Assembly: GCA_030672285.1 (NCBI GenBank)
Contig: DAOVGS010000028.1
Location: 1 to 38,672 of the forward strand
Source of the DNA: Hadesarchaea archaeon
Lineage (GTDB): Archaea; Hadarchaeota; Hadarchaeia; Hadarchaeales; Hadarchaeaceae
Length of the DNA: 38,672 bases
Direction of reading: 5' to 3'
Every line of letters starts with the position of its first letter. Position 1 is the stretch's first letter. Shown here piece after piece: positions 298 through 28,982 of the stretch. The position numbers and the translations under genes are program-made. Under the pieces are notes generated by a model. The model was not told where the DNA came from. It saw only the letters and a program-made list of their open reading frames with translations, and ran no database searches.

Positions 298-1486
298 GGA
301 AGTTCGGGCTGAGATTCCCTTCTTGCGTACTGGCATCATCTACTTGGACAACGCTGCGACGACGCCGACGCCCCAGCCCGTGCTCGACGCGATGCTCGAG
401 TATTTCCGCGAGTACGGTGCAAACGTTGGGCGGGGCCTACACCGTGCGACGCGACGCGCGACCGAAGCGTTTGAGGCGACCCGTGAAAGGCTCGCTCGGG
501 TGATCAACGCGAAGCCCGATGAAATAGCCTACACCAAAAATACTACTGAGGCCATCAACATCGTCGCCCAGGGCCTGAAGCTGCGGAAGGGGGACAAGGT
601 CGTGACGACGGTGCTCGAGCACCATTCGAACCTCCTCCCATGGCAGCGGCTGGAGCGCGAGCGGGGCGTGAAGCTCGAGCTCGTCCGGGTGCCGCGCGAG
701 TGCCTGATTGATCCGGCTGCAGTCGAGGCTGCGATTGATGATAAAACTCGGCTCATAGCAACCCATCACGTCTCCAACGCGATCGGGAGCATCCAGCCCG
801 TGGAGGAGATCGGCAAGCTCGCCCAGGATCGCGGCGTGCTTTACCTCATCGACGCGGCTCAGGCGGTCGGCCACATGCCCATCGATGTTCGAAAGCTCGG
901 GTGTGATTTCCTAGCCGCCCCCGGGCACAAGGGGCTACTTGGACCCCAAGGTACTGGCTTCCTCTACGCGCGCGAGGACCGCTTGACGGGGCTCGAGCCC
1001 CTCTTGGTCGGTGGAGGCATTGTGGAGCAAGTTGAAGAACACACGCACGATTTGGTCAAACCGCCTCAAATCTTCGACGCCGGGACCCCCAACATCCCGG
1101 GGATCATCGGGCTTGGCCGCGCCTGCGAGTACGTGCTCGAAATCGGAATAGAGCGAATTGCCGAACGCGAGCGAAAGCTGACCGAGCAAATGCTGCGCAT
1201 CGCGGACCTCGAGCACATCGAAGTCTACGGCCCCCGTGGCACCGAGCAACGAGGAGGTGTCGTGAGCTTCAACATCAGCGGTTTGGGGCACCACGATGTG
1301 GCATCAATGCTGGACGAGCTTGCTCAGATAGCGGTTCGCTCGGGGCATCATTGTGCACAACCGACCATGCGCCTTCTGGGAGTTGAGGGCACCGTGCGAG
1401 CTTCGGTTCACTATTACAACCTCGAAGGGGAGATCGAGCGCTTTACGACGACGCTCGAGCAGATCGCACGTGAGTTTGGCGATTGA
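281..1486 (+). CDS. sufS: Cysteine desulfurase, SufS/class-V PLP family
   Basis: Motifs YLDNAATT, EHHSN, DAAQ, GHK (PLP lysine), GTPN and the group-II catalytic RSGHHCA. Confidence 0.9.
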   Translation: MAKSVEEVRAEIPFLRTGIIYLDNAATTPTPQPVLDAMLEYFREYGANVGRGLHRATRRATEAFEATRERLARVINAKPDEIAYTKNTTEAINIVAQGLKLRKGDKVVTTVLEHHSNLLPWQRLERERGVKLELVRVPRECLIDPAAVEAAIDDKTRLIATHHVSNAIGSIQPVEEIGKLAQDRGVLYLIDAAQAVGHMPIDVRKLGCDFLAAPGHKGLLGPQGTGFLYAREDRLTGLEPLLVGGGIVEQVEEHTHDLVKPPQIFDAGTPNIPGIIGLGRACEYVLEIGIERIAERERKLTEQMLRIADLEHIEVYGPRGTEQRGGVVSFNISGLGHHDVASMLDELAQIAVRSGHHCAQPTMRLLGVEGTVRASVHYYNLEGEIERFTTTLEQIAREFGD

Positions 1487-1751
1487 CCCACCCTAAGAGG
1501 GCCGCGAGCGAAGCCCGGTGAGTCCGGAGATCCTCCTTGAGTATCTTCAGTGATGGTTCTTTGTCGATCACGATGGCGAGCTTCAGCAGGAGTTCTAGGT
1601 TAGGGTTCGAGGGATGTGTCGAATTTAACCACTTGCGGACAGCACCCTCGGTGACGCCGATTTTCCTCGCGAGTTCCCCCGTGGAGCCGAGTCCCTCGAG
1701 CAAAAGTTCAACGAGCTCGGTCCTAGCGGTCCTGCTTAGGTACTCGCATAT
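1443..1751 (-). CDS. Small helix-turn-helix (XRE/cI-like) DNA-binding protein; start uncertain
   Basis: STGELARKIGVTEGAVRKWLNSTHPSNPNLELLLKLA is a clear HTH. The frame stays open upstream of TTG1703 (WHGICEYLSRTARTELVELL) to a stop at 1884-1886, with no in-frame ATG/GTG. ATA1751 is used provisionally. The 3' end overlaps sufS by 44 bp on the opposite strand. Confidence 0.75.
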   Translation of the reverse strand: MCEYLSRTARTELVELLLEGLGSTGELARKIGVTEGAVRKWLNSTHPSNPNLELLLKLAIVIDKEPSLKILKEDLRTHRASLAALLGWVNRQTHVRSARASS

Positions 1752-1775
1752 GCCGTGCCACTCTCCGTTTGTTTT

Positions 1776-1985
1776 CGTACTCCCCGGTACGGATTTACGG
1801 GGAGGTTGTTTATAAGGCGAAAAATCGTACTCCCCGGTACGAACGTCATCGTGGTGCTCGAAATTCGTACTCCCCGGTACGATTTAGCCGTACCCCCCAG
1901 TACGATTTCACAATCGGCGAGCGGATTCGTACTCCCCGGTACGAATGGCAAATTAATTCAGATACCGATCGTACTCCCCAGTACG
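1776..1985. repeat. Array of six 16-bp palindromic repeats CGTACTCCCCGGTACG with unique spacers
   Basis: Copies at 1776-1791, 1826-1841, 1866-1881 and 1928-1943 are exact; 1889-1904 is CGTACCCCCCAGTACG and 1970-1985 is CGTACTCCCCAGTACG. Arms CGTAC/GTACG are invariant. Spacers are 34, 24, 7, 23 and 26 bp. Confidence 0.95.
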
Positions 1986-2019
1986 GTTCGGCCATCGTCG
2001 TTCAACTTAAATACAACAA

Positions 2020-2035
2020 TTTTTTTGCGAAAAAA
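2020..2035. terminator. Putative bidirectional oligo-T terminator (T7-GCG-A6)
   Basis: T6 on the minus strand immediately follows the lrp stop (2036-2038). T7 on the plus strand lies just downstream of the repeat array. Confidence 0.5.
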
Positions 2036-2515
2036 TCAAACCGGAATTGAACCCGTCTCCTTCTCCGTCTTGAGCACGACCAGCGTTCGCGTGCTGCTGA
2101 CCCCGGGAATTCGGTCGATCTCGTGCAGAACCTTGTTCAGCCCCAGCGTGTCGTCGATGATCAGCTTGAGGAAGAGGTCGTGCTCCCCGACCACCTCATG
2201 GATCTCAAGTACCTCTGGCCTTCGGTTGAGTTGTGCAATTACCTCCCCGCAGGTGCCGGGTGAGGTGGAAACGCCGATAAAAGCCTTCAACTTTTTCCCG
2301 ACCGCCTGAGGGTCAACCACGACGACGAATTTCTTGATAACCCCCGCATCCACCAACCGCTTCACCCGCTTGTGAATCCCCGAGGAGCTTATGCCCAGCC
2401 GCTTGGCGAGCTTGGCGTAGGGCACCTTCGCATCGCCCTGCAGGAGGTTGAGCAGCTTTCGATCGGTCTCGTCCAGTTCCACGATTTCCACTTTTCCAGC
2501 CCGTACGAGGCTCAA
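2036..2515 (-). CDS. Lrp/AsnC family transcriptional regulator, divergent from the his operon
   Basis: LDETDRKLLNLLQGDAKVPYAKLAKRLGISSSGIHKRVKRLVDAGVI wHTH, plus a RAM domain (EVLEIHEVVGEHDLFLK...GVSSTRT). Alternative start GTG2491. Confidence 0.93.
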   Translation of the reverse strand: MSLVRAGKVEIVELDETDRKLLNLLQGDAKVPYAKLAKRLGISSSGIHKRVKRLVDAGVIKKFVVVVDPQAVGKKLKAFIGVSTSPGTCGEVIAQLNRRPEVLEIHEVVGEHDLFLKLIIDDTLGLNKVLHEIDRIPGVSSTRTLVVLKTEKETGSIPV

Positions 2516-2536
2516 TCATACCATCATTGTGGATAA

Positions 2537-2602
2537 TATTTAAATTTTTCGCTTTTTAGGAAATAATTTGTCCTAAATCAAGAAACTAGTAAAATTTATA
2601 TA
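2537..2602. promoter_or_regulatory. Divergent lrp/his promoters with a central palindromic operator
   Basis: Minus-strand TATA TTTAAATA (2544-2537) has a BRE-like CGAAAAA upstream. Plus-strand TATA TTTATATA is at 2595-2602. Inverted repeat TTTAGGA-N9-TCCTAAA is at 2555-2577. Confidence 0.7.
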
Positions 2603-2632
2603 CGAAAATGACCAATTCAGGCAGGGAATACC

Positions 2633-3601
2633 ATGGGGAAGTCCCTCGAAGTGCTCGTGAAGGAGTCGAGCTACGCGCTGGTCTTAGGTATAGGTGGAGG
2701 GGGCGATGTAGTGGGAACTCTACCGACCTCACGCTACCTGCGCTTGCTGGGAATCCGAACGCTGGTCGGGGGGCTGACCTGGGAGCGCTACGTGAACGAC
2801 CCGGAGCCGGGCCCCCGCAAGATGGAAGAGATAGTCGAGATTAAGCGGCTCTCAGCGACGGTAGGGCTCGCGAACGCCCGAACGCGAACGACCAAGGAAA
2901 TCCGCTTTACCGAGTCGGTCGTGGCCGAGGTGCTGGGCGAGGAGACCGTGCTCGTGGACCTCAACCGTGGGGTGCAAGGGGCAATCGATGGTCTGAACGA
3001 GGCAATCGAGCAGCTGGGGGTAGATCTGTTTGTGGGGGTCGACGTTGGAGGTGACGTCCTGGCCAAGGGTTCGGAGGTGGGTGTTCACAGTATGTTGGCG
3101 GATAGTATGGTGCTGGCTTCGATGGTCAACTTGAAAGTGCCCGTGGTGCTGGGGGTGCTGGGTTGCGGCACCGACGGCGAGCTCAGCTTCGAGCAGTTCA
3201 ACCAACAAGTCGCTCGCATCGCCGGCTACGGTGGATTTTTGGGCGCCCGGGGCCTGACCCCCGATGATTTGAAGGTGCTCGATGAGGTGATCCCCAAGAC
3301 TAAAACTGAATCAAGCGCGCTGGCGGTCAAGGCGGCCCGGGGGCTTCAAGGGGAAATCGAAATTCGCGAAGGCCGTCGCAAAACCATGCTGACCCCTATG
3401 TCGGCGATGACGCTCTACTTAGACCCTCGGGTGGTATTCGATCGGATAAACGGGGTGGCGAAGGAGCTGGTGCCCACCCGCAGCTTGGAAGAGGCCCAAG
3501 GGGTGCTCGAGCGCCTGGGGGTGCCCAGCGAGCTGACGTACGAGCGGAAATACGTGTGGAAGCGCCGCGCCAGCGACCGACCCTCCGGAGGCAAAAAATG
3601 A
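2633..3601 (+). CDS. DUF1152 family protein, first gene of the his operon
   Basis: GIGGGGDVV, DVGGDVLA.G.E, LADS and G.DGEL motifs of DUF1152. Stop overlaps the hisC start (ATGA, 3598-3601). Confidence 0.82.
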   Translation: MGKSLEVLVKESSYALVLGIGGGGDVVGTLPTSRYLRLLGIRTLVGGLTWERYVNDPEPGPRKMEEIVEIKRLSATVGLANARTRTTKEIRFTESVVAEVLGEETVLVDLNRGVQGAIDGLNEAIEQLGVDLFVGVDVGGDVLAKGSEVGVHSMLADSMVLASMVNLKVPVVLGVLGCGTDGELSFEQFNQQVARIAGYGGFLGARGLTPDDLKVLDEVIPKTKTESSALAVKAARGLQGEIEIREGRRKTMLTPMSAMTLYLDPRVVFDRINGVAKELVPTRSLEEAQGVLERLGVPSELTYERKYVWKRRASDRPSGGKK

Positions 3602-4671
3602 TTTCAAAACGCGTTAGCGAGATGCTGCGATTGCGGGTTTCGTATCCGCTTGCCCGCAAATACGATGTCAGGGCAGCGGGGACCATCAACCTCGCCTCCA
3701 ACGAGAGCCCCTACGGTCCATCCCCCCGCGTGCTTCGAGCGCTCAAGCGGGAGGCGGCGCGCGTTGGTTCATACCCCGACCCCCGAGCCACGGAACTCAG
3801 GCGCGCGATAGGTAGCTACATCGGCGTCGAGATCGAGTGCGTGGCGATCGGGAACGGCTCAGACGAACTCGTGGACCTCGCATGCAAAGCTTTCCTTAAC
3901 CCCGGCGAGCGAGCGCTCATCCCCCTCCCCACGTTTGCGATGTACGAGCTCGCGTGCCGCGTCAACGGAGGGGTGCCCAAATTTTTCGAACTGTCGAACT
4001 TGGAGTGGCGTGTCACCGAACTCAAGCGCGCCTTGGAGGGGACGAAATTGGCGTTCATCGGCAGGCCGAACAACCCAACCGGCAACGGCATGAGTTTGAG
4101 AGACCTGAGGAGCCTGCTGGCGAGCGGAAGGCTGATCATCGTCGACGAGGCGTACGCCGAGTTCGCGGACGACTCGGTTGCAAAGCTCGCGACCAAGACG
4201 GGAAACCTGCTGGTGCTCCGCACGTTCTCCAAAGCTTTCGGGCTCGCGGGTTTGAGGGTCGGCTACGCGGTGGGCAACCCCAAGTTAATCGAGGCGCTTG
4301 AGGGAATCCGCGCCCCCTTCAACGTCAACCGCCTAGCCCAAGCCGCGGCGATTGCGGCCCTACGGGACAAGCGATACATGCGCAGGGTCGTGGGGAAAGT
4401 GAGACGGGGAAGGACGTACATACGCCGCGAGCTCACGAAGCTCGATTTTCGGGTCCTACCATCTGACGCGAACTTTTTGATGGTCGATGTTAGTCCAATG
4501 GGGTTAGATGCGTCCGAAGTATTCGATTTTCTCGCCGAGCGTAAAATTTTCGTGCGGGATCTCTCGAACTTTCGCGGCGCTGGTTCGGATTACATCAGGA
4601 TAACCGTCGGCACGCCGCGGCAGAACGAGCGGCTCGTGAAGACGATAAAGCAGTTCAAGGGAGGTGGTTAG
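3598..4671 (+). CDS. hisC: Histidinol-phosphate aminotransferase
   Basis: LASNESPY, GNGSDE, PNNPTG, DEAY, RTFSKAFGLAGLRVGY. ATG3598 is coupled to the upstream stop. Confidence 0.95.
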   Translation: MISKRVSEMLRLRVSYPLARKYDVRAAGTINLASNESPYGPSPRVLRALKREAARVGSYPDPRATELRRAIGSYIGVEIECVAIGNGSDELVDLACKAFLNPGERALIPLPTFAMYELACRVNGGVPKFFELSNLEWRVTELKRALEGTKLAFIGRPNNPTGNGMSLRDLRSLLASGRLIIVDEAYAEFADDSVAKLATKTGNLLVLRTFSKAFGLAGLRVGYAVGNPKLIEALEGIRAPFNVNRLAQAAAIAALRDKRYMRRVVGKVRRGRTYIRRELTKLDFRVLPSDANFLMVDVSPMGLDASEVFDFLAERKIFVRDLSNFRGAGSDYIRITVGTPRQNERLVKTIKQFKGGG

Positions 4672-5532: not shown

Positions 5533-5538
5533 AAAATA

Positions 5539-5566
5539 AACAGGGGTGTTGATTAACAGGGGTGTT
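5539..5566. repeat. Tandem duplication of palindromic AACAGGGGTGTT in the hisG-hisA spacer
   Basis: Exact 12-mers at 5539-5550 and 5555-5566 (16-bp period). Each contains the SD-like GGGGTG. Confidence 0.8.
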
Positions 5567-5571
5567 TAGTC

Positions 5572-8920: not shown

Positions 8921-9319
8921 TTGAAGTTGACCCCCCTTAAGGCAAGAGAAGTAGTAAAAGCCCTCAACTTCAGGGATGGCTTCGTCACAGCCGTTGCACG
9001 GGACTTCAAAACAAAACAAGTGCTCATGGTAGCGCACCAGACCAAGCAGGCGGTATTGAAGACCCTGACTACAGGCATGATGCACTACTGGAGCCGATTG
9101 CGGCGCAAACTATGGCTGAAGGGCGAGCAATCGAAGCACTACCAGCGAGTTCGTGATGTGTGGGTCGATTGCGATGGCGATGCCTTGGTCTTCGATGTCG
9201 AGCAGGTGTGTGCGGCGTGCCACGAGGGGTATCGTTCCTGCTTCTACCGTAAGGTCAGGCGGGGCAGGCTAACTCGGGTGCTGAAGCGGAAGTTCAAGCC
9301 TGAGGATGTTTACGGCTAG
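8921..9319 (+). CDS. hisI: Phosphoribosyl-AMP cyclohydrolase (monofunctional, no HisE domain)
   Basis: YWSR.R.KLWLKGEQS, DCDGD, ACHEGYRSCF. Confidence 0.95.
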   Translation: MKLTPLKAREVVKALNFRDGFVTAVARDFKTKQVLMVAHQTKQAVLKTLTTGMMHYWSRLRRKLWLKGEQSKHYQRVRDVWVDCDGDALVFDVEQVCAACHEGYRSCFYRKVRRGRLTRVLKRKFKPEDVYG

Positions 9320-9335: not shown

Positions 9336-10229
9336 ATGGTGAACCCCGCGAGGAGGACGCTCGACGCTTTCAGGCGGAGTTCCTCGGCGATATCTCTCGT
9401 CATCGTCTTGGGCCTGCTCGTGATGGTCCTGAGCTCTGCCTACTGTATCCTAGCTTACAATCCATCCGAGTTCTTGGAGCAACCGGGGGCACAGGAGTAT
9501 GAGAACGCGCTCGAGAACGTCGGGCGGATGGACGAGTGGGCGCGGACGCAGTACTATTGGTCTCACAACTTGAGGGTCGCCGGGCTGTACGTGGCCGGAA
9601 CCCCAGCCTACCTAAGCTTCCCGTCGCTACTACTCGGCAGTTACTTTACTGGGATGAACCTCTCCTACTGGTACCACTTTGCAGGGGCGGAGGTATTCCT
9701 AGCGTTCGTGGCAAGCATCTTTGTTCATGGCGTGCTTGAACTCACGGGCATCTTCATCGTCGCGGCGATTGCACTGCGGGCGGCTTGGGCTCTCTGGAAG
9801 GGAATGGGACACATGGCGGCGGTGGCGAAGCGCGGTGGAAAGCTATGGACGTGGGGTTTCTCGAGGGAGGAAAAACGGGAGCTTCGGAGGCACAAGGGTG
9901 AGGTCAAGGAGTTCTTGGTGGATTTCCTCTTGGTGGCCGGAGTGGGTGCGTTTTTGATTTTCCTCGCGGCACCGATTGAGGCTTACGTTTCACCTGGGAT
10001 CTTCTGGAACTTCATGACGACGCCACTACTTGCGGTGGTTTTCTTAGCAGTTGTTGCATTTCTCTACTTTTTAGTGGTCGTATGGGGGATCAGGGGTGTG
10101 CGGAAGAATATGGGAGCGATTTACAAGGACCTCAAGTTTGTTTTCAAACGCAGGTGGCGGCCAGCACAGCTTTCAATTTTGATGTTCGCGGTGTTTTCCA
10201 TAATGGTGTTGATCAGCTTCTTGACCTGA
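9336..10229 (+). CDS. SpoIIM/DUF95 family integral membrane protein
   Basis: Multiple hydrophobic segments, HN, HGVLEL and LAAPIEAYVSP motifs. SD GAGGTGG precedes ATG9336. Confidence 0.75.
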   Translation: MVNPARRTLDAFRRSSSAISLVIVLGLLVMVLSSAYCILAYNPSEFLEQPGAQEYENALENVGRMDEWARTQYYWSHNLRVAGLYVAGTPAYLSFPSLLLGSYFTGMNLSYWYHFAGAEVFLAFVASIFVHGVLELTGIFIVAAIALRAAWALWKGMGHMAAVAKRGGKLWTWGFSREEKRELRRHKGEVKEFLVDFLLVAGVGAFLIFLAAPIEAYVSPGIFWNFMTTPLLAVVFLAVVAFLYFLVVVWGIRGVRKNMGAIYKDLKFVFKRRWRPAQLSILMFAVFSIMVLISFLT

Positions 10230-10233
10230 GTGG

Positions 10234-11298
10234 CTACCTACGAGCGAATCCCAGCCCCTCGACCCGGATGCGTCCAGGTTGCCCTCGCTGCCCCTCGACC
10301 TCAAATTTCACGCCGAGGATTTGCTTAACCAGCGCGATGTTCGTCAGCGCGTGCGAGGTGAGTTCGGCGCTCGTTATCTCAGATGTGCCTTCGGCGAGCG
10401 CGAGGTAGAGCACGAGTTGATCGGTCAGGTGGCTGTCGACCGCGCAGCCCGTTTGAAGTTGCTTGAGCAAGCTCTCGGCAGCTTCCCGCCCAACTTCTTC
10501 GGCCGGCTTTCCCTGTTTGCCCAGCGAGCTCGCCCCTAGGATTGTGCCGCCCTCGGTTTCGGCCCAGAGGGTTATCCCGGTCCCAGGGCCGAGGTGGGGG
10601 TCTCGGGTTGGGGGGTAGGACTCGGCTTTGATGTCGACCTTGGCTTGGCCAGCCTTGATCAACGCCATGCTCGCCGCGTGGGCCATCCGGGTCGCGATGT
10701 GAGCGGGGAGGCGAACGCAGTGCGCTACTCCCGCGATGTGGACCACCCTCCCGGGCTCCGTTAACTTGAGCGCTCCCAGTTTTTCGACGGGTTCGATTCG
10801 GGCGCGCACGATCCCTCCGCCTCGCGGGTAGTGGCCCCGCTGGACGCACTCGACCTCACCCCGATATTCCATCTTGCGCAGCGTGGGCAGGGTGATGTTT
10901 TTTAAAAAGTCGATGGGGGGCGCGAACGGGTTGTCGGTCCCGCCTGTGATTTCAACCTCCACGGGCTTGCCGGCGAAAGCCGCGGCCGGCATCAAGATCT
11001 GTAGAATTAGCGTGGTACTGCCCGCGGTCCCTATGTCGACGCGATATCTGCCGCCCTCTATGGCGCTGGGCTCGAACTTTAGCTCCTTCGAGTGAAGCTC
11101 CAGCCCTTCAACCCGGGCGTTCGTGAGCTTGCTGAGTGCTTCGACCCCTCGCAGGTGTTGGGGCTGGAGCCCGGGTTTCGTCCGTTTCGCGCGGATGTTG
11201 TAAATGTGGATGGGCTTCCAACTGACCGCGCTCAGTCCTAGTGCCGTTCGGAGCACCGCCCCGCCGCCCTCGCCCATCGAGCCATCTACCTCGATCAT
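10234..11298 (-). CDS. rtcA: RNA 3'-terminal phosphate cyclase
   Basis: IEVDGSMGEGGG, RAKRTKPGLQPQH, GGTD, RGHYPRGGG, DSHLTDQL, TSHALTN. Confidence 0.95.
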   Translation of the reverse strand: MIEVDGSMGEGGGAVLRTALGLSAVSWKPIHIYNIRAKRTKPGLQPQHLRGVEALSKLTNARVEGLELHSKELKFEPSAIEGGRYRVDIGTAGSTTLILQILMPAAAFAGKPVEVEITGGTDNPFAPPIDFLKNITLPTLRKMEYRGEVECVQRGHYPRGGGIVRARIEPVEKLGALKLTEPGRVVHIAGVAHCVRLPAHIATRMAHAASMALIKAGQAKVDIKAESYPPTRDPHLGPGTGITLWAETEGGTILGASSLGKQGKPAEEVGREAAESLLKQLQTGCAVDSHLTDQLVLYLALAEGTSEITSAELTSHALTNIALVKQILGVKFEVEGQRGQPGRIRVEGLGFARR

Positions 11299-11356
11299 CA
11301 GCAGAAGTTAGGTCCTTCAAATATAAGAGTTGAAAGCGAATATCCTCACGGGTCAA

Positions 11357-11726: not shown

Positions 11727-13019
11727 TTATTCCAAATAGACCAGTTGCGTATGAACGCTGACGGCATTCTTGTAGCTTACACCCTGTTGAATGGCTTCCT
11801 GTTGAATTACATATGTGAGCTGGATATCCAAGATATTGCTGTAACAATTGCTATCCTTCCCGCGTGGGGGAGATCCAGCTGAGACTGAGTCTGTTGAGGT
11901 TGTGGGAGGAGCGTAATAAAAGTCCACCCCACTGTCCGAGCTCGCCTCCCAAGTCAGGATCATATTGTCTACAGCGTATGTCGAGCCGTCATGGGCAGGA
12001 TAAGAATCTCTTTTTGAGGTGTAGATTAGTTCCTGGTATGTGCCGTTCGTTTTCTCTGCTATTTCTTTGAAGATACTTACCCCGTTCACATAACCAGTTA
12101 TTCCACTGCAGCCTATGACATGAATTTTGATACCCTTCTCCTTAGCAATCTCTACTTCATTTCTATAATCATAATCGTCCTCATAGTCCATATGGGGTGG
12201 CGCATCACCTATGAGGAATACCATCTTTACATGATCGTCATTACCCCAATTGCAGTCGTTTATCGCCACATGCAGAGCTTCATTCACTGATTCAGGACCA
12301 TCACCGCCTCCCTGGGCCTGTATACTCCTGAGAAATGTTTTGATGTCCTCTACATCTTCTGTAAAGTCAAAGAGCATTGTAACGTATGTATCGCCTCTGT
12401 CCCTGTAGGTAACGATAGCATATCTCACATCTGGTTTTGGGGTGCCGTTCTGTACCCCAAATATGATTTCCTCTATCTTATCTTTTACAACCAGTATTTC
12501 ATCGTCCATGCTACCAGTGCTGTCTAAAAGGAATAGCACATCGATTCGAGGTGGCGTTGTTTCAGAATCATCAGTATCACCAGAGTCATCATCATCGTCT
12601 GGCTCGTCAGGGACATCTGGTTGATTTGGAGTATCGGGGTCATCTGGCTGGTTCTCTTCAATCATTCTAATCGCGTTTTGGGCCAACCTCTTCGCGGAAT
12701 TCGCCAATCCGTAAGCCCGACCATATCTCCCTTCATCATAAGCTTCCTTCGCGTTGTCAAGATGTTCTTTCGCTTCCTCAAAAAGCACCGTCGCGCTCTG
12801 AGGAATATCATTTTCCAAAGAGTCGATCAGATTTTCTGCACGTTCTATCACAGCCTCCGCTGCTTCTATCTCTTCTAGCGCTCTCTGCTGCTGTCCCTCG
12901 TTGTTTTCATGCCCACCGCTTAACATCAAATTTTGGTGTTCCATTGACCTAGCACAAACAGTGCCGGCCGAAACTGTGATGGCTGCTATCAGGATGATGG
13001 TGGCCCCAAACCATTTCAT
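11727..13019 (-). CDS. Secreted protein: signal peptide, helical bundle, acidic Pro/Asp linker and vWA domain
   Basis: Hydrophobic N-terminus; linker QPDDPDTPNQPDVPDEPDDDDDSGDTDDS; MIDAS DVLFLLDSTGSM, YRD, GGGDGPE, LIGDAPPH. Confidence 0.85.
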   Translation of the reverse strand: MKWFGATIILIAAITVSAGTVCARSMEHQNLMLSGGHENNEGQQQRALEEIEAAEAVIERAENLIDSLENDIPQSATVLFEEAKEHLDNAKEAYDEGRYGRAYGLANSAKRLAQNAIRMIEENQPDDPDTPNQPDVPDEPDDDDDSGDTDDSETTPPRIDVLFLLDSTGSMDDEILVVKDKIEEIIFGVQNGTPKPDVRYAIVTYRDRGDTYVTMLFDFTEDVEDIKTFLRSIQAQGGGDGPESVNEALHVAINDCNWGNDDHVKMVFLIGDAPPHMDYEDDYDYRNEVEIAKEKGIKIHVIGCSGITGYVNGVSIFKEIAEKTNGTYQELIYTSKRDSYPAHDGSTYAVDNMILTWEASSDSGVDFYYAPPTTSTDSVSAGSPPRGKDSNCYSNILDIQLTYVIQQEAIQQGVSYKNAVSVHTQLVYLE

Positions 13020-13063
13020 CTCTTATCCCTGAGTTAAGAATGGCGCGTAGAAGTATTTATAAA

Positions 13064-13083
13064 AAGTTTCAAATGTGAGACTT
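13064..13083. promoter_or_regulatory. Palindromic operator AAGTTTCA-N4-TGAGACTT adjoining the vWA gene TATA box
   Basis: Matches the two sites at 13936-13982. Minus-strand TTTATAAATA lies immediately on the gene side. Confidence 0.65.
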
Positions 13084-13131
13084 AATTAAATCTACAAAAA
13101 TTCCAAAATGAATTTATGGATTTTAGTGGCA

Positions 13132-13929
13132 CTACACCAATTCCCGCTTACCAACATATTTGTAGACGTGGCTCGGCTTGCCCCTACCGCCGAGCCCATT
13201 CGCCGCGAGTTTCGTTTGCTCGGTCGGTTTCACAAGCCCCCGCTCGACCAGCTTCTGGACCGTTCGCCAGACCGTGACCTTGGAGGTCTTTGTCAGTTTC
13301 ATGAGCTCAGGGATGGTGAACTCCTTCAGCTCCATTATGTGCCCCACTATCTCCACATCTCTCACCGTCATGTCGTGGAGCCCGTGCTCGAGCAGCGTCG
13401 ATGTCGCGCCGCCCCACATCTGCCGATACCCAGCCCAAACGGCGAGAGCCACGACCCCCATCGCGATACCGATGCTCGCGGCGATCGGCAGGGCATTGAT
13501 CGGCTTTGTCTCCGTAGTCGTCGTGTTGGCAACGGTAACAGGATCTCTAGTTGCTTGTGCTTGTTCATAGGCGTTTGTTGGCACGTTTATCTGAGATACC
13601 CCGAGCCTACCCCCATCACCTACTAAAGCGGCTGGCGCCGGGGTTAGGACAGGGGCGTCATCATAATCTTCATAACCTGAGTAGTACCACAGGTTGTAAA
13701 AACCTACATTATCCGCGCTTAGAACAAATTCCACGTTCTCCACATCATACTGTACATTGTCTATGGATATCTGTTGTCCAAAGTTCTCGATAACTACAGT
13801 TTGGGTTGAGGTGATGACATATCTTTCGCCGTAAAAATGGTCGAGAGCAACGTAGGACGTGACAGCAGCCGCCCCCAGCACCACCAAAGCTATCATCGCA
13901 CCAAGAAACCAACGACGCATGCCCAGCAC
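13132..13929 (-). CDS. Membrane-anchored winged-HTH transcriptional regulator
   Basis: N-terminal hydrophobic segment, ~130-aa extracellular part, TM (LPIAASIGIAMGVVALAVWAGY), then a wHTH (MTVRDVEIV...FTIPELMKLTKTSKVTVWRTVQKLVERGLV...GRGKPSHVYKY). Confidence 0.82.
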   Translation of the reverse strand: MLGMRRWFLGAMIALVVLGAAAVTSYVALDHFYGERYVITSTQTVVIENFGQQISIDNVQYDVENVEFVLSADNVGFYNLWYYSGYEDYDDAPVLTPAPAALVGDGGRLGVSQINVPTNAYEQAQATRDPVTVANTTTTETKPINALPIAASIGIAMGVVALAVWAGYRQMWGGATSTLLEHGLHDMTVRDVEIVGHIMELKEFTIPELMKLTKTSKVTVWRTVQKLVERGLVKPTEQTKLAANGLGGRGKPSHVYKYVGKRELV

Positions 13930-13935
13930 CGCATA

Positions 13936-13982
13936 AAGTATCGTTTATGAAACTTATAAATTATGTTTCTTTTATGAAACTT
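13936..13982. promoter_or_regulatory. Two palindromic operators in the divergent regulator/beta-propeller promoter
   Basis: AAGTATCGTTTATGAAACTT (13936-13955) and ATGTTTCTTTTATGAAACTT (13963-13982) flank TATA-like CTTATAAA and abut TTTAAA. Confidence 0.7.
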
Positions 13983-14025
13983 AATTTAAATCCGAGGTTT
14001 GACCATCTTTAATTGGTGAAACAAA

Positions 14026-15984
14026 ATGAGGCGCTGGCTTCCGCCCGTGTCGGCATGGTATCTGATAGAGGCTAAATTATCGTTTGTGGCGCTCATTCTG
14101 ATTGTGGCCACTGTAACAACTTTGGCTACTCCAATTCTCATCGTCGCGGCGGGGCTGAACGCTGAAGAAGATTTGAGCTACGGTGGGCAGAATTACTTAA
14201 ATAAATTCTCATCCTACGAGGAGCTGAAAAATTTTGTGAAGGGAAGTGTTGGTTATGACGACGCTTATTACCCTGAATCAATCCTGCCGGTTCCAATGGT
14301 TCCAAGTTCCAACTCGTTGACGAACACATGGACAGGCACAAGATTTGTTGCAGGTTCAGCCGCCCAAATAGATTCAGATTATGTAACTTATGAAATCAAC
14401 GTAACGACGGACACCCAAACAGATTATTCAACGACAAATATCCAAGTTGAGGGCGTCGATGAGGCGGACATCGTGAAGAGCGACGGGAAATACATTTATG
14501 TCGTTTCTGGAAGCAAGGTAGTCATCATCGACGCATATCCAGCCGAAAATGCCAGAATTCTTTCCGAGATAGAAGTGAACGGAAATCCGGTTGAGATATT
14601 TATAAACGGAAACAAACTCGTCGTGCTCGGATGGGCGTACATCAAAGTTTACGATGTTTCAGACAGGGAGAACCCCATCCTAACAAGAGACGTTTCCTCC
14701 GATGGCTATTATTCCGATTCGAGAATGGTGGGGAGTTATGTTTACGTGATAATAAATTCACCAATTTACTATCGGGTGGAGGAAATAGATCTACCCTACA
14801 TTTCCTCCAATGGCGACACCAAAACAATTCCAGCGACTGAAATTTACTATTTTGAAAATATTCAAGATTATTCGTACGAGTTCACGACCATCATGGCGAT
14901 AAACACGCAAGAGGATGATGAGGAGATAACAAGCGAAACGTTCCTCATCGGCATAACCCAGAACGTCTTCGTTTCCTCGAACAACATTTACATAACATAC
15001 ACCGACAGCTGGTACACTCCATACACTGACAGGGATGAGGATCAGTGGACTGAGAAAACAATTATTCACAAAATATCCATAGCTGGTGGGATAATCGAAT
15101 ACAAATCGCAGGGGGAGGTTCCGGGGCACGTCTTGAACCAATTTTCCATGGACGAATACCAGGGATATTTCAGGATAGCGACCACAACGGGGGAGGTTTG
15201 GGGCGGTGGAGCCCGGAATCACGTTTATGTTCTCGATGAAGATCTTAACATCGTTGGTAGATTAGAGGACCTTGCCCCCGGAGAAAGAATTTACTCCGCA
15301 AGATTTATGGGCGGCAGGGCTTACCTCGTGACGTTCAAAAAAATTGATCCTTTATTCGTGTTAGATTTAAGTGATCCCCGTAACCCAAGAGTTCTTGGAG
15401 AGTTGAAAATACCGGGGTACTCCGATTACCTGCACCCCTACGATGAAACTCACCTGATAGGCGTGGGCAAGGACACCGTGGAGTCGGAATGGGGAAACTT
15501 CGCGTGGTATCAGGGCGTAAAGATAGTCCTCTTCGATGTGAGCGACCCAGAAAACCCAATAGAAATATCAAAATATGTGATAGGCGACCGGGGGACCGAT
15601 TCTTACGCTTTGAGCGATTCTTACGCTTTGAGCGATCACAGGGCATTTTTGTTCAGCAGGTCGAAGAACCTCCTCGTGATTCCCATCTTGCTTGCCGAGA
15701 TAAACGAGGAACAATACTTTGGAGGAGTTCCGCCCAACGCTTATGGGGAATACACTTGGCAGGGCGCCTACGTATTTGACATCTCCTTGACCGATGGTTT
15801 GGTGCTTAAGGGAGGAATAACTCATTCGGAGGACAACGCCCAGCTAGGGTGGGGTTGGTATTATTCATTCCGCTCCGTCAAGAGATCCCTCTACATAGAC
15901 AACGTGCTCTACACCATCTCGGATGAACTGGTGAAAATGAACAACCTGGAGGACTTGAGCGAGATAAGTGAAGTAGAATTATAA
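14026..15984 (+). CDS. Secreted/membrane-anchored beta-propeller domain protein (Beta_propel family)
   Basis: YSTTNIQVEGVDEADIVKSDG, VPGHVLNQFSMDEY, GERIYSARF, VTFKKIDPLFVLDL, LGELKIPGYSDYLHP. Confidence 0.9.
   Translation: MRRWLPPVSAWYLIEAKLSFVALILIVATVTTLATPILIVAAGLNAEEDLSYGGQNYLNKFSSYEELKNFVKGSVGYDDAYYPESILPVPMVPSSNSLTNTWTGTRFVAGSAAQIDSDYVTYEINVTTDTQTDYSTTNIQVEGVDEADIVKSDGKYIYVVSGSKVVIIDAYPAENARILSEIEVNGNPVEIFINGNKLVVLGWAYIKVYDVSDRENPILTRDVSSDGYYSDSRMVGSYVYVIINSPIYYRVEEIDLPYISSNGDTKTIPATEIYYFENIQDYSYEFTTIMAINTQEDDEEITSETFLIGITQNVFVSSNNIYITYTDSWYTPYTDRDEDQWTEKTIIHKISIAGGIIEYKSQGEVPGHVLNQFSMDEYQGYFRIATTTGEVWGGGARNHVYVLDEDLNIVGRLEDLAPGERIYSARFMGGRAYLVTFKKIDPLFVLDLSDPRNPRVLGELKIPGYSDYLHPYDETHLIGVGKDTVESEWGNFAWYQGVKIVLFDVSDPENPIEISKYVIGDRGTDSYALSDSYALSDHRAFLFSRSKNLLVIPILLAEINEEQYFGGVPPNAYGEYTWQGAYVFDISLTDGLVLKGGITHSEDNAQLGWGWYYSFRSVKRSLYIDNVLYTISDELVKMNNLEDLSEISEVEL
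15597..15636 (+). repeat. Perfect in-frame 18-bp tandem duplication (DSYALS x2)
   Basis: GATTCTTACGCTTTGAGC at 15598-15615 and 15616-15633. Confidence 0.92.
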
Positions 15985-16002
15985 AAAAAGAATTTTGTAG
16001 CT

Positions 16003-24756: not shown

Positions 24757-25869
24757 ATGGATGAGAGAGGAAGCACCACTTCAGTGATTATTGCGGTAGT
24801 TGTTGTGGCTGTAGTTGTAGTGGGAGTTAGTCTTTACTTTTTGAGCAACTTTGGCGGCGACAATCTGGGATCAGGCCCAATCACTTTCACGTATTCCCCA
24901 CTGGAAGAAAATTTGATCGACAGTATAACCCCCCTAGGAAACCTCAATCCTCCTGGCCATACCTTTCCCACTGACCATATCTATCTTAATCTTAGTGAGG
25001 GCCAGGATGCTCCTCCATACGCTATGATCAGAGCTCCCGCAGATGGGATTATAACAGGGATTGAGTTGGGGGTCTATGACCGGCCAGATGGTGGTGGCAC
25101 ATACGAAGATTACGCACTAGATTTCACCTATACCTCAACGTTCAAGGGTTACTTCTACCACCTAAACGGGCTTGACCAGTCAATTTTGCAAGAGGCAGGC
25201 ACACTAAACACGGATGGTTACACTGATGTTCACATCCCCGTCGAGGCGGGGGATGTTTTGGGAAAAATCGAGTGGATCCAGCCATATGGGTACGGTATGG
25301 ATTGGGGAGTAATAGATTATGATGTTACGCTAGGGTTCACAAATTCAGACAGATATGAAGACCCGTGCCATCCCCCACTTCATTCTGTTTGTCCACTTGA
25401 CTACTGTGCAGAACCCCTGAAAACTTCCCTTTACGAGAAAGTTGGTCGAACGGCCGAACCGAGGGGAGGCAAAATTGATTTTGATCAGCCGGGCAAACTC
25501 GTAGGTAACTGGTTCGCGGAGGGAATTGACGAATCCGACCCGCTAGGGGATTGGTCTAATCACTTGGCTTTTGTTTATAATCTGTATGATCCAACTCAGA
25601 TAAAAATCTCCATTGGGGGAAATCTCTCGATAACTGGGCTATACTCTGTTGTGGGGAACTTTCCCGACCCAGCCGATGTTTCTATCGAGACTGGAAAAGT
25701 CTGTTATCAACTCCAAGGGACACCCATGGAGTCAGGGGGCGGACAGCAAGAGGGAGTTCTCATCGCCCAAGTGGTGGATACTAACAGAATAAAAGTGGAT
25801 ACAATAGAGGGCGTGCAAGCTAGCTCCGACCCAGATTTCACCGAGAATGCCAAGTATTACATAAGGTAG
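24757..25869 (+). CDS. Membrane-anchored extracellular protein with degenerate M23/hybrid-motif domain
   Basis: MDERG|STTSVIIAVVVVAVVVVG; PTDHIY, RAPADGIIT, YFYHL, VEAGDVLG. Confidence 0.65.
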   Translation: MDERGSTTSVIIAVVVVAVVVVGVSLYFLSNFGGDNLGSGPITFTYSPLEENLIDSITPLGNLNPPGHTFPTDHIYLNLSEGQDAPPYAMIRAPADGIITGIELGVYDRPDGGGTYEDYALDFTYTSTFKGYFYHLNGLDQSILQEAGTLNTDGYTDVHIPVEAGDVLGKIEWIQPYGYGMDWGVIDYDVTLGFTNSDRYEDPCHPPLHSVCPLDYCAEPLKTSLYEKVGRTAEPRGGKIDFDQPGKLVGNWFAEGIDESDPLGDWSNHLAFVYNLYDPTQIKISIGGNLSITGLYSVVGNFPDPADVSIETGKVCYQLQGTPMESGGGQQEGVLIAQVVDTNRIKVDTIEGVQASSDPDFTENAKYYIR

Positions 25870-25908
25870 TTACACTCGATTAACTTGGATGACTCTCAAT
25901 AAGCGTCG

Positions 25909-28896: not shown

Positions 28897-28982
28897 ACCC
28901 CTTATGGCTCTTATTCGGCTCCTTTTAAGTGTTTTTTTTGAGCAAGCCAGCTATTTACATCGTCATATCTAAATTGGGATTA

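What the first reader, a model, noticed from the sequence alone, without database searches (positions are those of the whole stretch)
1443..2035. Six-copy palindrome array with unique spacers coupled to a small HTH gene: candidate undescribed cis-array/binding-protein system
Seen: six same-orientation copies of CGTAC-TCCCCG-GTACG within 210 bp, with starts 50, 40, 23, 39 and 42 bp apart. The arms are invariant, the asymmetric C4/G4 core is nearly invariant, flanks are A/T-rich (copy 5 extends to ATTCGTAC...GTACGAAT) and the spacers are unrelated to each other. The array lies directly upstream of an HTH gene. A TATA-like TTTATAAG (1809-1816) sits between copies 1 and 2, so copy 1 would cover the predicted HTH transcription start. 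No cas, cdc6, parA or integrase gene is nearby. Inference: six near-perfect sites is more than simple autorepression needs. The HTH protein may nucleate a higher-order complex on the array, as a centromere-like site (cf. Sulfolobus SegB on palindromic sites), an iteron-like origin or a titration locus. Conservation of the asymmetric core suggests orientation matters.
Basis: partly seen in the sequence, partly recalled or inferred. Interest (0 to 1): 0.82.

Follow-up and report, generated by a model that had tools for sequence, protein, structure and literature searches.

The report
Archaeal repressor-like gene with six-palindrome operator array
Six identical short palindromes sit in front of a small DNA-binding (Cro/XRE-like) gene in an uncultivated Hadarchaeota archaeon; they are one example of a lineage-wide family of matched protein/palindrome pairs that behave as dispensable, duplicating cassettes, and are most likely self-regulating operator arrays, not a centromere or replication origin.

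Summary
Six same-orientation CGTAC-N6-GTACG sites lie at 1776-1985 (0.04 expected), and they are the only ones in the 958-kb genome.

The coupling to the HTH gene holds in relatives. All 32 distinct homologues that I looked at carry such palindromes beside the gene. There are about 20 classes: the arms differ between classes but stay complementary, and the GGGG core is invariant.

The protein is an XRE/Cro-like fold with a modelled symmetric dimer. The promoter-proximal palindrome starts 17 nt after a TATA box that matches the genome's standard promoter, so it lies over the expected transcription start. Other copies lie upstream of TATA, and in relatives also just after the gene.

In four genomes the CGTAC class occurs only at its own HTH gene (15 of 15 sites). 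Window 1489-2000 is missing from the closest relative. Another paralogue exists as two 98% identical cassettes bounded by palindromes.

Best reading (about 0.6): an accessory cassette whose HTH dimer binds these DNA palindromes and represses its own promoter cooperatively. Centromere and origin readings are not supported. No binding or RNA data exist. The gene has no canonical start codon at the family's N-terminus. I found no description of this family in print. Sister classes scattered before host start codons remain unexplained.

The parts
1776..1791 (-). Palindrome 1 (sense strand CGTAC-CGGGGA-GTACG). It starts 17 nt downstream of the TATA box, over the expected transcription start, and is the candidate repressing operator.
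   Evidence: The same TATA-17/18 nt-palindrome geometry is seen in 8 homologous loci.
1809..1816 (-). TATA box (CTTATAAA on the - strand) of the HTH promoter.
   Evidence: It matches the TATA plus C-rich stretch of a promoter consensus found at 14 other places in the own genome. No transcription start has been mapped.
1826..1841 (-). Palindrome 2, 9 nt upstream of the TATA box.
   Evidence: Identical in the G005 orthologue.
1866..1881 (-). Palindrome 3. It lies in a 24-nt segment that the G005 array lacks, so the arrays gain or lose copies.
1889..1904 (-). Palindrome 4 (core TGGGGG).
1928..1943 (-). Palindrome 5. Its arms extend to 8 bp (1925-1946).
1970..1985 (-). Palindrome 6 (core TGGGGA), 15 nt inside the right edge of the indel module.
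1443..1775 (-). The XRE/Cro-like HTH gene. The family profile matches 1473-1772. The start codon is unresolved: ACG 1778-1776, ATA 1751-1749 or TTG 1703-1701. The last 15 codons (1443-1488) run antisense into the 3' end of the cysteine desulfurase gene.
1489..2000 (.). The indel module (HTH gene plus array). In the closest relative G001 25 unrelated nt stand here. G002, G007, G008 and G009 show the two flanking genes 39-41 nt apart.
   Evidence: In one search, an X6 contig joins 1487 to 2036 with 61 other letters between.
2030..2035 (-). A T6 run directly after the Lrp stop codon (2038-2036). It is a candidate archaeal terminator that would keep Lrp transcription out of the array. This is an inference.
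   Evidence: Sequence read. Not tested.

Best explanation
The array is the operator region of an accessory, self-contained repressor cassette. The small protein is an XRE/Cro-like helix-turn-helix protein, about 110 aa, that dimerises through its conserved N-terminal segment and a long C-terminal helix. It most likely binds each 16-bp DNA palindrome as a dimer: the recognition helices would read the class-specific arms, and conserved parts of the protein would read or tolerate the invariant G4 centre. Site 1 covers the transcription start, so occupancy there would block RNA polymerase recruitment, which gives autorepression. Sites 2-6, upstream of the TATA box at roughly whole-turn spacings, would raise local occupancy or cooperativity and sharpen that feedback. 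What is shown: the sites are real. They are perfectly conserved while the spacers diverge. They are coupled to the gene across the phylum. The protein has an XRE fold. The cassette is dispensable. What is inferred: DNA binding itself, the dimer, the transcription start and the sign of regulation. The CGTAC class has no other site in the assembled genomes, so this copy seems to regulate only itself. Sister classes (TTTAC, TCAAC) also mark the start regions of host genes.
For: 1. Six sites against 0.04 expected, and they are unique in the genome.
2. Family coupling. 32 of 32 distinct homologues have at least one palindrome (5-bp arms with at most 1 mismatch, plus NGGGGN) within -350 to +200 of the gene. 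Each of the three classes in the own genome has its own paralogue.
3. Selection on the sites. Window against G005: 0 of 80 palindrome columns differ against 24 of 106 spacer columns (Fisher p = 5e-7). The gene has dN/dS 0.185 with dS 0.47.
4. Dyad symmetry is maintained through change. 88.8% of cells pair against 56% in shuffles, 47 cells change on both sides, and 8 of 8 pairs covary. G-T type mismatches are not enriched: 37 GT/TG and 27 AC/CA of 169 mismatches. That points to a DNA palindrome more than an RNA stem.
5. Promoter geometry. TATA-17/18 nt-palindrome occurs in 8 loci. In the other loci the sites abut the TATA box from upstream, where they would not be transcribed from that promoter. 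Three loci have all copies inverted relative to the gene.
6. The protein. Pfam HTH_3 scores 29.6-30.1 bits against a cut-off of 23. The AlphaFold model has pLDDT 93.2. The nearest folds are CapH, ClgR, P22 c2, lambda cI, R-M controller proteins and HigA (probability up to 0.99, but E-values only 0.19 or more). The homodimer model scores 0.42 against a best control of 0.00. That mark was reached by 20 of 30 solved homo-pairs and by 1 of 23 proteins solved as single chains. The runs agree in at least 28% of contacts, and partner pLDDT is at least 78. Dimeric XRE repressors have solved structures, so part of this pass may come from likeness to them.
7. Arms track the recognition helix. TEG goes with CGTAC, TEM with TAAAC, TER with CGGAC, and TQA with TTTAC against CPG with TTCAC. 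Partial Mantel r = 0.26, p = 0.006.
8. Co-occurrence. The AAC-N-GGGG-N-GTT motif averages 8.8 per genome in 21 genomes with the HTH family (control 2.6). It averages 2.35 (control 2.2) in 40 genomes without it. Spearman rho is 0.66. Related genomes are not independent.
Against: There is no binding, footprint, transcription-start or expression data. No listed sequencing run that holds the stretch is on record as RNA.

The gene has no canonical start codon at the family's N-terminus in the window, G005 or G023. Starting at TTG 1703 would remove the invariant E11, S14, R15 and R18 and part of the modelled dimer interface.

Variable arms with an invariant, asymmetric centre is the reverse of a textbook operator, and is also what an RNA or single-strand hairpin family would show.

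Sister-class palindromes sit 1-18 nt before start codons inside operons, with no TATA box upstream (MBH, the T2SS-like operon, hisA). A promoter operator does not explain those well. Their GGGGTG loop could act as a Shine-Dalgarno sequence.

In the partial Mantel test the arms correlate about as well with the rest of the protein (r = 0.23, p = 0.0006) as with the recognition helix. Shared descent could therefore explain much of point 7.

TTTAC or TTCAC palindromes persist in G001, G006, G010 and G013, where no HTH was found. All four genomes are incomplete (56-89%).

Foldseek E-values are weak (0.19 or more).
Confidence: 0.6

Rival explanations
1. A selfish or mobile palindrome cassette, REP/RAYT-like in logic. 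The palindromes are the ends and dispersed copies of an element that duplicates or moves by recombination at the palindromes. The HTH is the element's own site-binding protein. Autoregulation is secondary. This partly overlaps the best explanation.
For: Two paralogue copies in the own genome (C24 and C29) are 98.4% identical over 374 nt. The identity starts 2 nt before the proximal palindrome, and both contigs break in the downstream palindrome; their upstream flanks are unrelated. Three of 5 paralogues lie at contig ends. Palindromes flank the gene on both sides in 12 of 23 loci, often between convergent genes where no promoter is served. The window module is an indel between genomes that are 95% identical in the flanks. 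Its left edge (1488/1489) falls where other cassettes carry their downstream palindrome. The distribution is patchy: 23 of 66 phylum genomes, and 6 of 13 other genomes of the genus. Dispersed copies are letter-perfect: 9 TTTAC copies on 4 contigs. At the T2SS-like junction the HTH is present between palindromes in G000 and G003 and absent in G005, G006 and G012, where palindromes remain.
Against: No cassette I examined contains a transposase or recombinase, and an HTH alone cannot cut DNA. There is no target-site duplication. The empty site in G001 holds 25 unrelated nt and no palindrome. The CGTAC class has not spread: 15 of 15 sites lie at the gene. The same intergenic site holds an unrelated 3.8-kb insertion in G004, so it may simply be a variable spot.
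Confidence: 0.2
2. An RNA-level element. The copies are hairpins in a leader or a small RNA (loop GGGGAG on the sense strand, or C-rich loops on the antisense strand). They would present or hide a Shine-Dalgarno-like sequence, stabilise mRNA ends, or sponge an RNA-binding factor.
For: Arms covary while the loop is fixed. Single hairpins fold at -5.2 to -7.6 kcal/mol at 37 C. In sister classes the loop GGGGTG sits 5-7 nt before TTG or GTG start codons inside operons. A TATA-like TATTTAAG lies about 20 nt upstream of copy 6, so a long leader is conceivable. Palindrome 1's core aligns with the GGCGGGAG leader element of the genome's standard promoter.
Against: No Rfam family matches the array; the only hit in 1300-2700 is PyrD_leader at 2538-2603, E 8.1, far below its gathering score. 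G-U type pairs are not enriched. Many copies lie upstream of the TATA box or in antisense orientation to the gene. With the usual TATA-to-start distance the 5' arm of site 1 would not be transcribed. In the 251-nt fold only 2 of 6 local hairpins form in the minimum-energy structure, and z is -2.15. A conserved A-G mismatch in all 10 copies of the L014/L015 class points to sequence readout, not pairing.
Confidence: 0.1
3. Core sites of a site-specific recombinase: inverted binding arms around a 6-bp asymmetric crossover region. As direct repeats around the gene they would allow excision and integration of the cassette.
For: The sites have 5-9-bp inverted arms and a fixed asymmetric 6-bp centre. 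All copies in a locus point the same way in 22 of 23 loci. Cassette edges coincide with palindromes.
Against: No tyrosine or serine recombinase gene lies in or beside the cassettes I examined. The arms differ between classes, so one trans-acting recombinase could not bind them all. Sites of 16 bp are short for such enzymes. Arrays of six are not expected.
Confidence: 0.05
4. A centromere-like segregation site, an iteron-type replication origin or a titration locus. These are the first reader's options.
For: There is one cluster of 3-6 identical sites per genome, next to the gene of the presumed binding protein. This resembles parC/ParR or SegB sites in outline; that resemblance is recalled, not tested.
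Against: The module is absent from the closest relative and from four other genomes of the genus. No ParA/SegA-type NTPase, Orc1/Cdc6 or Rep gene lies within 16 kb. Cumulative GC skew rises steadily through the locus. Paralogues of the same family sit in ordinary operons.
Confidence: 0.03

Closest known systems
Cro/cI-type (XRE, Pfam HTH_3) phage and prophage repressors with multiple operators, such as lambda cI/Cro, P22 c2 and 434
   Same: A small helical HTH domain. A predicted symmetric dimer. Palindromic sites of about 16 bp whose half-site centres are about one helical turn apart. Several sites clustered at the protein's own promoter. As recalled for the 434 operator, the outer bases are contacted and the central bases tune affinity.
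   Different: Here the centre (GGGG) is invariant and the outer arms vary between about 20 classes. There are up to six sites. Sites also lie just downstream of the gene. The promoter is an archaeal TATA promoter. There is no prophage or divergent partner gene. No specific Pfam, NCBIfam or PHROG model is reached beyond generic HTH families.
Controller (C) proteins of restriction-modification systems and Aca/CapH-type HTH autoregulators of mobile defence or anti-defence modules
   Same: They are among the best structural neighbours (C.Esp1396I, C.BclI, C.EcoT38IS, CapH, Aca7). They are short autoregulators that bind inverted repeats at their own promoter inside accessory modules. One paper reports a C protein acting as an elongation roadblock (PMC6237814; I saw only its search listing and the start of its abstract). 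That would be a precedent for operon-internal sites.
   Different: No R-M, CBASS or acr gene follows the HTH. In the window it stands alone between two convergent housekeeping genes. PADLOC gives no hit for the window protein; 4 of the 20 family members get weak hits.
REP elements with their RAYT (HUH/Y1) genes in bacteria
   Same: A single gene is flanked by its own class of short palindromes. The same palindromes are dispersed in intergenic regions, often in tandem. Each class is specific to a lineage. The distribution is patchy.
   Different: The protein is an HTH, not an HUH endonuclease. The copies are direct repeats, not inverted pairs. The CGTAC class is not dispersed at all. The REP/RAYT features are recalled; the one paper listed (PMC6006769) I saw only as a search listing and the start of its abstract.
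Archaeal and plasmid centromere-binding adaptors (SegB, AspA, ParR/parC)
   Same: A small DNA-binding protein with a cluster of repeated sites beside its own gene, and probable autoregulation.
   Different: There is no adjacent motor NTPase, the locus is dispensable among close relatives, and it is chromosomal. The features of these systems are recalled, not taken from a call.

Membership tests
XRE / Cro-cI HTH (Pfam PF01381 HTH_3) | Sequence match above the curated cut-off | tested here: met
   29.6-30.1 bits against a cut-off of 23. 17 of 20 family members match HTH_3 at E <= 0.01.
XRE / Cro-cI HTH (Pfam PF01381 HTH_3) | Five-helix lambda-repressor-like fold | tested here: met
   Model pLDDT 93.2, helices at 15-29, 32-39, 43-51 and 57-70, plus a long helix 72-109. 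The top Foldseek rows are all XRE-type repressors, with probability up to 0.99 but E-values of 0.19 or more.
XRE / Cro-cI HTH (Pfam PF01381 HTH_3) | Binds a dyad-symmetric DNA operator as a dimer | not testable with these tools
   Only a homodimer model is available: 0.42 against a best control of 0.00. That mark was reached by 20 of 30 solved homo-pairs and 1 of 23 single chains. Runs agree in at least 28% of contacts and partner pLDDT is at least 78. The pass may partly reflect likeness to solved XRE dimers.
Centromere-like partition locus (ParB/parS, ParR/parC, SegB, AspA) | Adjacent partition NTPase gene (ParA/SegA/ParM) | tested here: not met
   The neighbours are a cysteine desulfurase-like gene, Lrp, DUF1152 and the his operon.
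Centromere-like partition locus (ParB/parS, ParR/parC, SegB, AspA) | Kept in close relatives with the same replicon | tested here: not met
   The site is empty in G001 (95% identical flanks), G002, G007, G008 and G009.
Iteron-type or ORB replication origin | Adjacent initiator gene (orc1/cdc6 or rep) and a turn in GC skew | tested here: not met
   No such gene in 1-16 kb. Cumulative GC skew rises steadily across 1-11 kb.
CRISPR array | Regular repeats of about 24-50 nt with spacers of similar length; cas genes | tested here: not met
   The repeats are 16 nt and the spacers are 7-34 nt and irregular. No cas gene was seen in 1-16 kb. No Rfam hit on the array.
REP/RAYT | The flanked gene encodes an HUH/Y1 transposase-like protein | tested here: not met
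   The gene encodes an HTH_3/YdaS-like protein only.
REP/RAYT | The same palindrome class is dispersed through the genome | tested here: not met
   For the CGTAC class, 15 of 15 sites in 46 genomes lie at the HTH gene. Sister classes TTTAC and TCAAC are dispersed.
Type II toxin-antitoxin (HigA/HipB-like antitoxin) | Adjacent co-transcribed toxin gene | tested here: not met
   The module holds one family-conserved ORF between two convergent genes. Neighbours of the homologues are diverse housekeeping genes.
R-M controller (C) protein | Located in an R-M operon with C-boxes | tested here: not met
   No methyltransferase or endonuclease gene is adjacent. PADLOC gives no hit for the window protein.

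The most novel reading that the evidence does not exclude
Hadarchaeota carry a previously undescribed class of self-propagating 'operator-repressor cassettes'. Each is a small XRE-like HTH gene bounded by direct repeats of its own palindrome (class-specific arms around an invariant G4 core). In this reading, the cassettes duplicate or move by recombination at those palindromes and diversify quickly into orthogonal protein/site pairs. They also seed solo palindromes that supply the ribosome-binding site, the start codon and sometimes the upstream stop codon of host genes. That would wire host operons (MBH hydrogenase, a pilus-like operon, hisA) to the cassette's repressor. The system would be REP/RAYT-like in logic but built on a DNA-binding protein with no nuclease.
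Probability: 0.2. Interest if true: 0.8.

Novelty: new variant of a known kind. Interest (0 to 1): 0.62.

Why it matters
Almost nothing is known about gene regulation in Hadarchaeota, an uncultivated subsurface phylum. This locus exposes a family with about 20 visibly different protein/site specificities and an easily read code (recognition-helix residues against arm bases). The family also marks a standard promoter of the lineage.

If the binding model holds, it offers a natural set of orthogonal archaeal repressor/operator pairs. It also offers a case of rapid co-evolution of a regulator and all of its sites.

If the cassette model holds, it would be a new kind of small mobile or duplicating unit that rewires host translation-start regions.

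Either way, both are directly testable without cultivation, using synthetic protein and DNA.

Tried and rejected
Steps that gave nothing:
- The Rfam scan of 1300-2700 gave no match on the array; its one hit (PyrD_leader, 2538-2603, E 8.1) lies outside it and far below its gathering score.
- The word-based protein search with the 110-aa reading found 54 candidates and none scored. That blank is not evidence that the protein stands alone.
- The profile search of 1.84 billion representatives found 1283 proteins at E <= 0.001 and 187 at E <= 1e-10. Many of these are long multi-HTH repeat proteins. Single-domain relatives of about 75-145 aa make up roughly half of the best 150. The library carries no names or context.
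No arrays were seen.
- PHROGs gave only generic repressor, HTH and small-terminase matches. PADLOC gave none for the window protein.
- No RNA holder was listed among 21 runs, so expression, start and strand could not be examined.
- Logan contigs of run X1 break inside the array. I read that as a repeat effect, not as absence.

Readings I considered and dropped:
- CRISPR-like mini-array: unit size and spacing do not fit, and there is no cas gene.
- Type I R-M bipartite target (AAC-N6-GTT-like): in such targets, as recalled, the spacer is not specified, whereas here it is conserved.
- G-quadruplex formed by the array: the G4 runs are 23-50 nt apart in the window, which is too far. It remains conceivable only for the 14-nt-spaced arrays of L011, L012 and L031.
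- Intrinsic terminators for Lrp: T runs do not consistently follow the hairpins.
- An ORF through the array (1769..2050 +, repeated RTPRY): this is a repeat artefact.
- The 3.8-kb insertion at the same site in G004 encodes a 955-aa ORF that reads like a glycoside hydrolase (my reading, not checked with Pfam). It has no palindromes.

Literature. Six searches listed no paper that describes this family. I saw only search listings and the starts of abstracts. The exception is PMC7565180, where I read passages with the find mode. It reports Hadesarchaea as outliers in G4-prone sequence, which is context only. Supplementary files were not opened. The library is partial, so 'not in print' holds only for these searches.


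Full report
OBSERVATION

The six sites are real. One search finds CGTACNNNNNNGTACG at 1776, 1826, 1866, 1889, 1928 and 1970 (+ strand coordinates). The expectation from shuffles is 0.04, and 0 of 100 shuffles reach six. The G run of the core lies on the - strand, which is the sense strand of the HTH gene. These six are the only matches in the whole own genome: 957,912 bases in 69 contigs, 82% complete. A contig from a different study (run X2) spans 1393-1952 with 18 differences. Fifteen of them are listed and none falls in a palindrome; three are not shown. The array is therefore not an assembly artefact. Relatives found by protein carry record titles naming Candidatus Hadarchaeota / Hadarchaeum.

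THE GENE

The listed 86-aa ORF (TTG 1703 to 1443) matches Pfam HTH_3 only from profile position 14. Homologues in relatives align from codon 1751, and the profile aligns from about 1772. The conserved N-terminal motif reads (W/F)(H/D)G-I-C-E-Y-L-S-R-x-A-R and includes the invariant E11, S14, R15 and R18. Upstream of that motif the window, G005 and G023 have no ATG, GTG or TTG in frame. In a Hadarchaeum relative (L049) a TTG stands just before C-E-H-L-S-R, where the window has ATA at 1751-1749. An in-frame ACG (1778-1776) lies where the genome's standard promoter places its start codon. The start is unresolved.

The gene is under purifying selection between the window and G005: 87 codons, dN/dS 0.185, dS 0.47. 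The last 15 codons run antisense into the 3' end of the cysteine desulfurase gene.

The AlphaFold model is confident (pLDDT 93.2). It shows the XRE helices plus a 38-residue C-terminal helix. Its Foldseek neighbours are XRE-type repressors: CapH, ClgR, P22 c2, lambda cI, R-M controller proteins, HigA and Aca7. Probabilities reach 0.99, but E-values are 0.19 or more. No specific family model is reached in Pfam, NCBIfam, PHROGs or PADLOC.

A homodimer model reaches the mark, with a score of 0.42 against a best control of 0.00. That mark was reached by 20 of 30 solved homo-pairs and by 1 of 23 proteins solved as single chains. The runs agree in at least 28% of contacts, and partner pLDDT is at least 78. 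The interface is formed by residues 5-15 and 68-101. This shows likeness to dimeric repressors. It does not show binding.

THE FAMILY PATTERN

The family occurs in 23 of 66 genomes of the phylum at E <= 1e-15. By family of genomes the counts are f1 15/45, f3 1/1, f4 6/9, f2 0/6, f5 0/3 and f6 0/1. I examined 32 distinct family proteins in the fetched loci. Two further rows, from L075, belong to a different multi-HTH protein and were dropped. All 32 of 32 have at least one palindrome within -350 to +200 of the gene, where a palindrome means 5-bp arms with at most one mismatch around NGGGGN.

There are about 20 arm classes, among them CGTAC, ACAAC, TAAAC, TTCAC, TTTAC, TACAC, TTAAG, TTAAC, TTCGC, TAAAG, TCAAC, GTAAC, CGGAC and GGACA. 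In an alignment of one representative per class the four G's are invariant. The eight arm pairs all covary: 88.8% of cells pair against 56% in shuffles, and 47 cells change on both sides. G-T type mismatches are not enriched. They make up 37 GT/TG against 27 AC/CA of 169 mismatches in 114 palindromes; the copies are not independent. This fits a DNA dyad better than an RNA stem.

PROMOTER GEOMETRY

In eight loci, the window among them, the proximal palindrome starts 17-18 nt after a TATA box. Where a canonical start codon exists, it follows the palindrome directly. In the other loci the palindromes lie upstream of the TATA box. What follows the TATA there is a conserved C-rich stretch, then GGCGGGA, then the start codon. 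That TATA-plus-leader consensus recurs at 14 other places in the own genome, in front of unrelated ORFs and one tRNA-like sequence. It is therefore the lineage's standard promoter, and the window's promoter is a variant of it.

In 12 of 23 loci palindromes also follow the gene's stop codon, often between convergent genes. All copies in a locus point the same way in 22 of 23 loci. In three loci (L013, L032 and L033) all copies are inverted relative to the gene.

SELECTION ON THE SITES

Between the window and the G005 array, the five shared palindromes differ at 0 of 80 columns, while the spacers differ at 24 of 106 (p = 5e-7). The window has one extra copy on a 24-nt insertion. Site spacings are 50, 40, 23, 39 and 42 bp in the window and 43, 39, 39 and 51 bp in G005. 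These are near whole helical turns, within about 2-3 bp. I note that but do not lean on it.

SPECIFICITY

Close relatives that differ at the first three residues of the recognition helix differ in their arms. TEG goes with CGTAC (4 proteins), TEM with TAAAC (2) and TER with CGGAC (1). TQA goes with TTTAC, while CPG goes with TTCAC. A partial Mantel test gives r = 0.26 (p = 0.006) for arms against the recognition helix, controlling for the rest of the protein. The converse, arms against the rest of the protein controlling for the helix, is r = 0.23 (p = 0.0006). This support is therefore modest.

CO-OCCURRENCE

Across 61 relatives, the 12-mer AAC-N-GGGG-N-GTT averages 8.8 per genome in the 21 genomes with the family, against 2.6 for the reversed control pattern. 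In the 40 genomes without the family it averages 2.35 against 2.2. Spearman rho is 0.66. Related genomes are not independent, and incomplete genomes may hide genes.

THE WINDOW'S CLASS IS SELF-CONTAINED

In 46 genomes of the family, CGTAC-N-GGGG-N-GTACG occurs in four: G000 (6 sites), G005 (5), G065 (3) and G023 (1). All 15 sites lie directly upstream of the cognate HTH gene, and control counts are zero.

THE MODULE IS DISPENSABLE

In G001, whose flanks are 95% identical, 25 unrelated nt replace window 1489-2000. G002, G007, G008 and G009 have the two convergent flanking genes 39-41 nt apart. G005 has the module. G004 has a 3.8-kb insertion there. In the remaining genomes of the genus the flanks lie on separate contigs or only one was found, and G010 had no match. 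A contig of run X6 joins 1487 to 2036 with 61 other letters between. The module's left edge (1488/1489) is about where other cassettes carry their downstream palindrome, at +256 to +305 from the anchor codon.

The syntenic HTH after Lrp in another genus (L015) is only 42% identical, while Lrp is 70% identical. It has six copies of a different arm class.

CASSETTE BEHAVIOUR OF SISTER CLASSES

The own genome has five paralogues, and three of them lie at contig ends. The C24 and C29 copies are 98.4% identical over 374 nt. The identity starts 2 nt before the proximal palindrome, and both contigs end in the downstream palindrome; the upstream flanks are unrelated.

TTTAC-class palindromes are letter-perfect: 9 copies on 4 contigs. 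They lie 1-18 nt before TTG, GTG or ATG start codons of MBH/Mrp subunits and of a T2SS-like ATPase and membrane protein, with no TATA box upstream. TCAAC, TAAAC and TTAAC-type copies precede hisA (window 5537-5568), a PyrK-like gene, a phosphoglycerate mutase gene and others.

At the junction between the T2SS-like ATPase and membrane-protein genes, the HTH sits between palindromes in G000 (TTTAC) and G003 (TTCAC). In G006 and G012 two palindromes remain without the gene. In G005, G002 and G009 the cores are degenerate. G006 keeps perfect sites although no HTH was found in it; it is 89% complete. That finding cuts against a strict dependence of the sites on the protein.

INTERPRETATION

The best-supported reading is a cognate repressor-operator module. 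An XRE-like dimer binds the DNA palindromes. Site 1 over the transcription start gives autorepression. Sites 2-6 add cooperativity or local concentration.

The invariant G4 centre may be kept for one of two reasons. It may double as the leader or Shine-Dalgarno element of the standard promoter, because palindrome 1's core aligns with GGCGGGAG. Or conserved protein residues may read it. Both ideas are inference. I give this reading 0.6.

The cassette-like duplication, the indel polymorphism and the palindromes on both sides of the gene keep a selfish or mobile reading alive at 0.2. That reading overlaps the first. An RNA-level role gets 0.1, mainly because of the operon-internal copies just before start codons. 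Recombinase core sites get 0.05. Centromere, origin or titration gets 0.03.

LIMITS

There are no binding, transcription-start or expression data. No RNA run was listed. Six literature searches listed no description of this family. They cover only the held library, and I did not open supplements.

Noticed in passing
window 5537-5568: Two tandem sister-class palindromes (TAAAC-AGGGGT-GTTGA and TTAAC-AGGGGT-GTTTA) fill the gap between the hisG stop codon and the GTG start of hisA (5572). The second ends 3 nt before the start codon, so its GGGGTG loop is placed like a ribosome-binding site.
   Followed up: partly
own genome G000: C9:1550, C41 (6 places), C8:4182, C28:7889, C31:14640, C49:12569, C30:790, C13:16827, C57:5584; window 1792-1816 in part: A promoter-plus-leader consensus of about 45 nt is strikingly conserved: a T-rich/CCCC stretch, TTATAAA, a C-rich CCTCCACCC-like stretch, GGCGGGA, then a start codon 2-5 nt later. 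It recurs before unrelated genes and before one tRNA-like sequence. It looks like the standard strong promoter of this lineage.
   Followed up: partly
window 1443-1488 and 1701-1778: The HTH reading frame has no canonical start codon at the family's N-terminus. It ends only after running 44 nt antisense into the 3' end of the cysteine desulfurase gene.
   Followed up: partly
L234 (G004:C38:2000-7300), about 730-4580: In another species of the genus, the same intergenic site between the cysteine desulfurase and Lrp genes holds a 3.8-kb insertion with a 955-aa ORF. The ORF reads like a glycoside hydrolase (my reading, not checked with Pfam). The site seems to be a hot spot for accessory DNA.
   Followed up: partly
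L037 (G000:C31) 10982-11329 and 13520-13535; L038 (G000:C28) 9043-9075 and 10070-10085: The 17-nt unit TTTACAGGGGTGTAAAG, single or in tandem, supplies three things at once. It gives the stop codon of the upstream gene (proteins ending ...FTGV), a Shine-Dalgarno-like GGGGTG, and the TTG start of the next gene. This occurs in a T2SS-like operon and in the MBH/Mrp operon.
   Followed up: partly
L241 (G005:C4), L246 (G002:C1), L244 (G009:C36) at the junction of the T2SS-like ATPase and membrane-protein genes: At the site orthologous to the TTTAC palindromes, these genomes keep the arms but have degenerate cores (GGGA, AGGG). No TTTAC- or TTCAC-class HTH gene turned up in them in my searches.
   Followed up: partly
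window 12000-16000 and 25000-29000: These stretches have lower G+C (0.44-0.49 against about 0.55-0.61 elsewhere). The first holds a VWA-domain protein (11727-13019, -) and a beta-propeller protein (14026-15984, +). This may be laterally acquired DNA.
   Followed up: no
L022 (G019:C66) and L031 (G024:C18), next to the HTH genes: ORFs beside two of the HTH cassettes read to me like IS605-type TnpB fragments (translations). I did not check them with Pfam.
   Followed up: no
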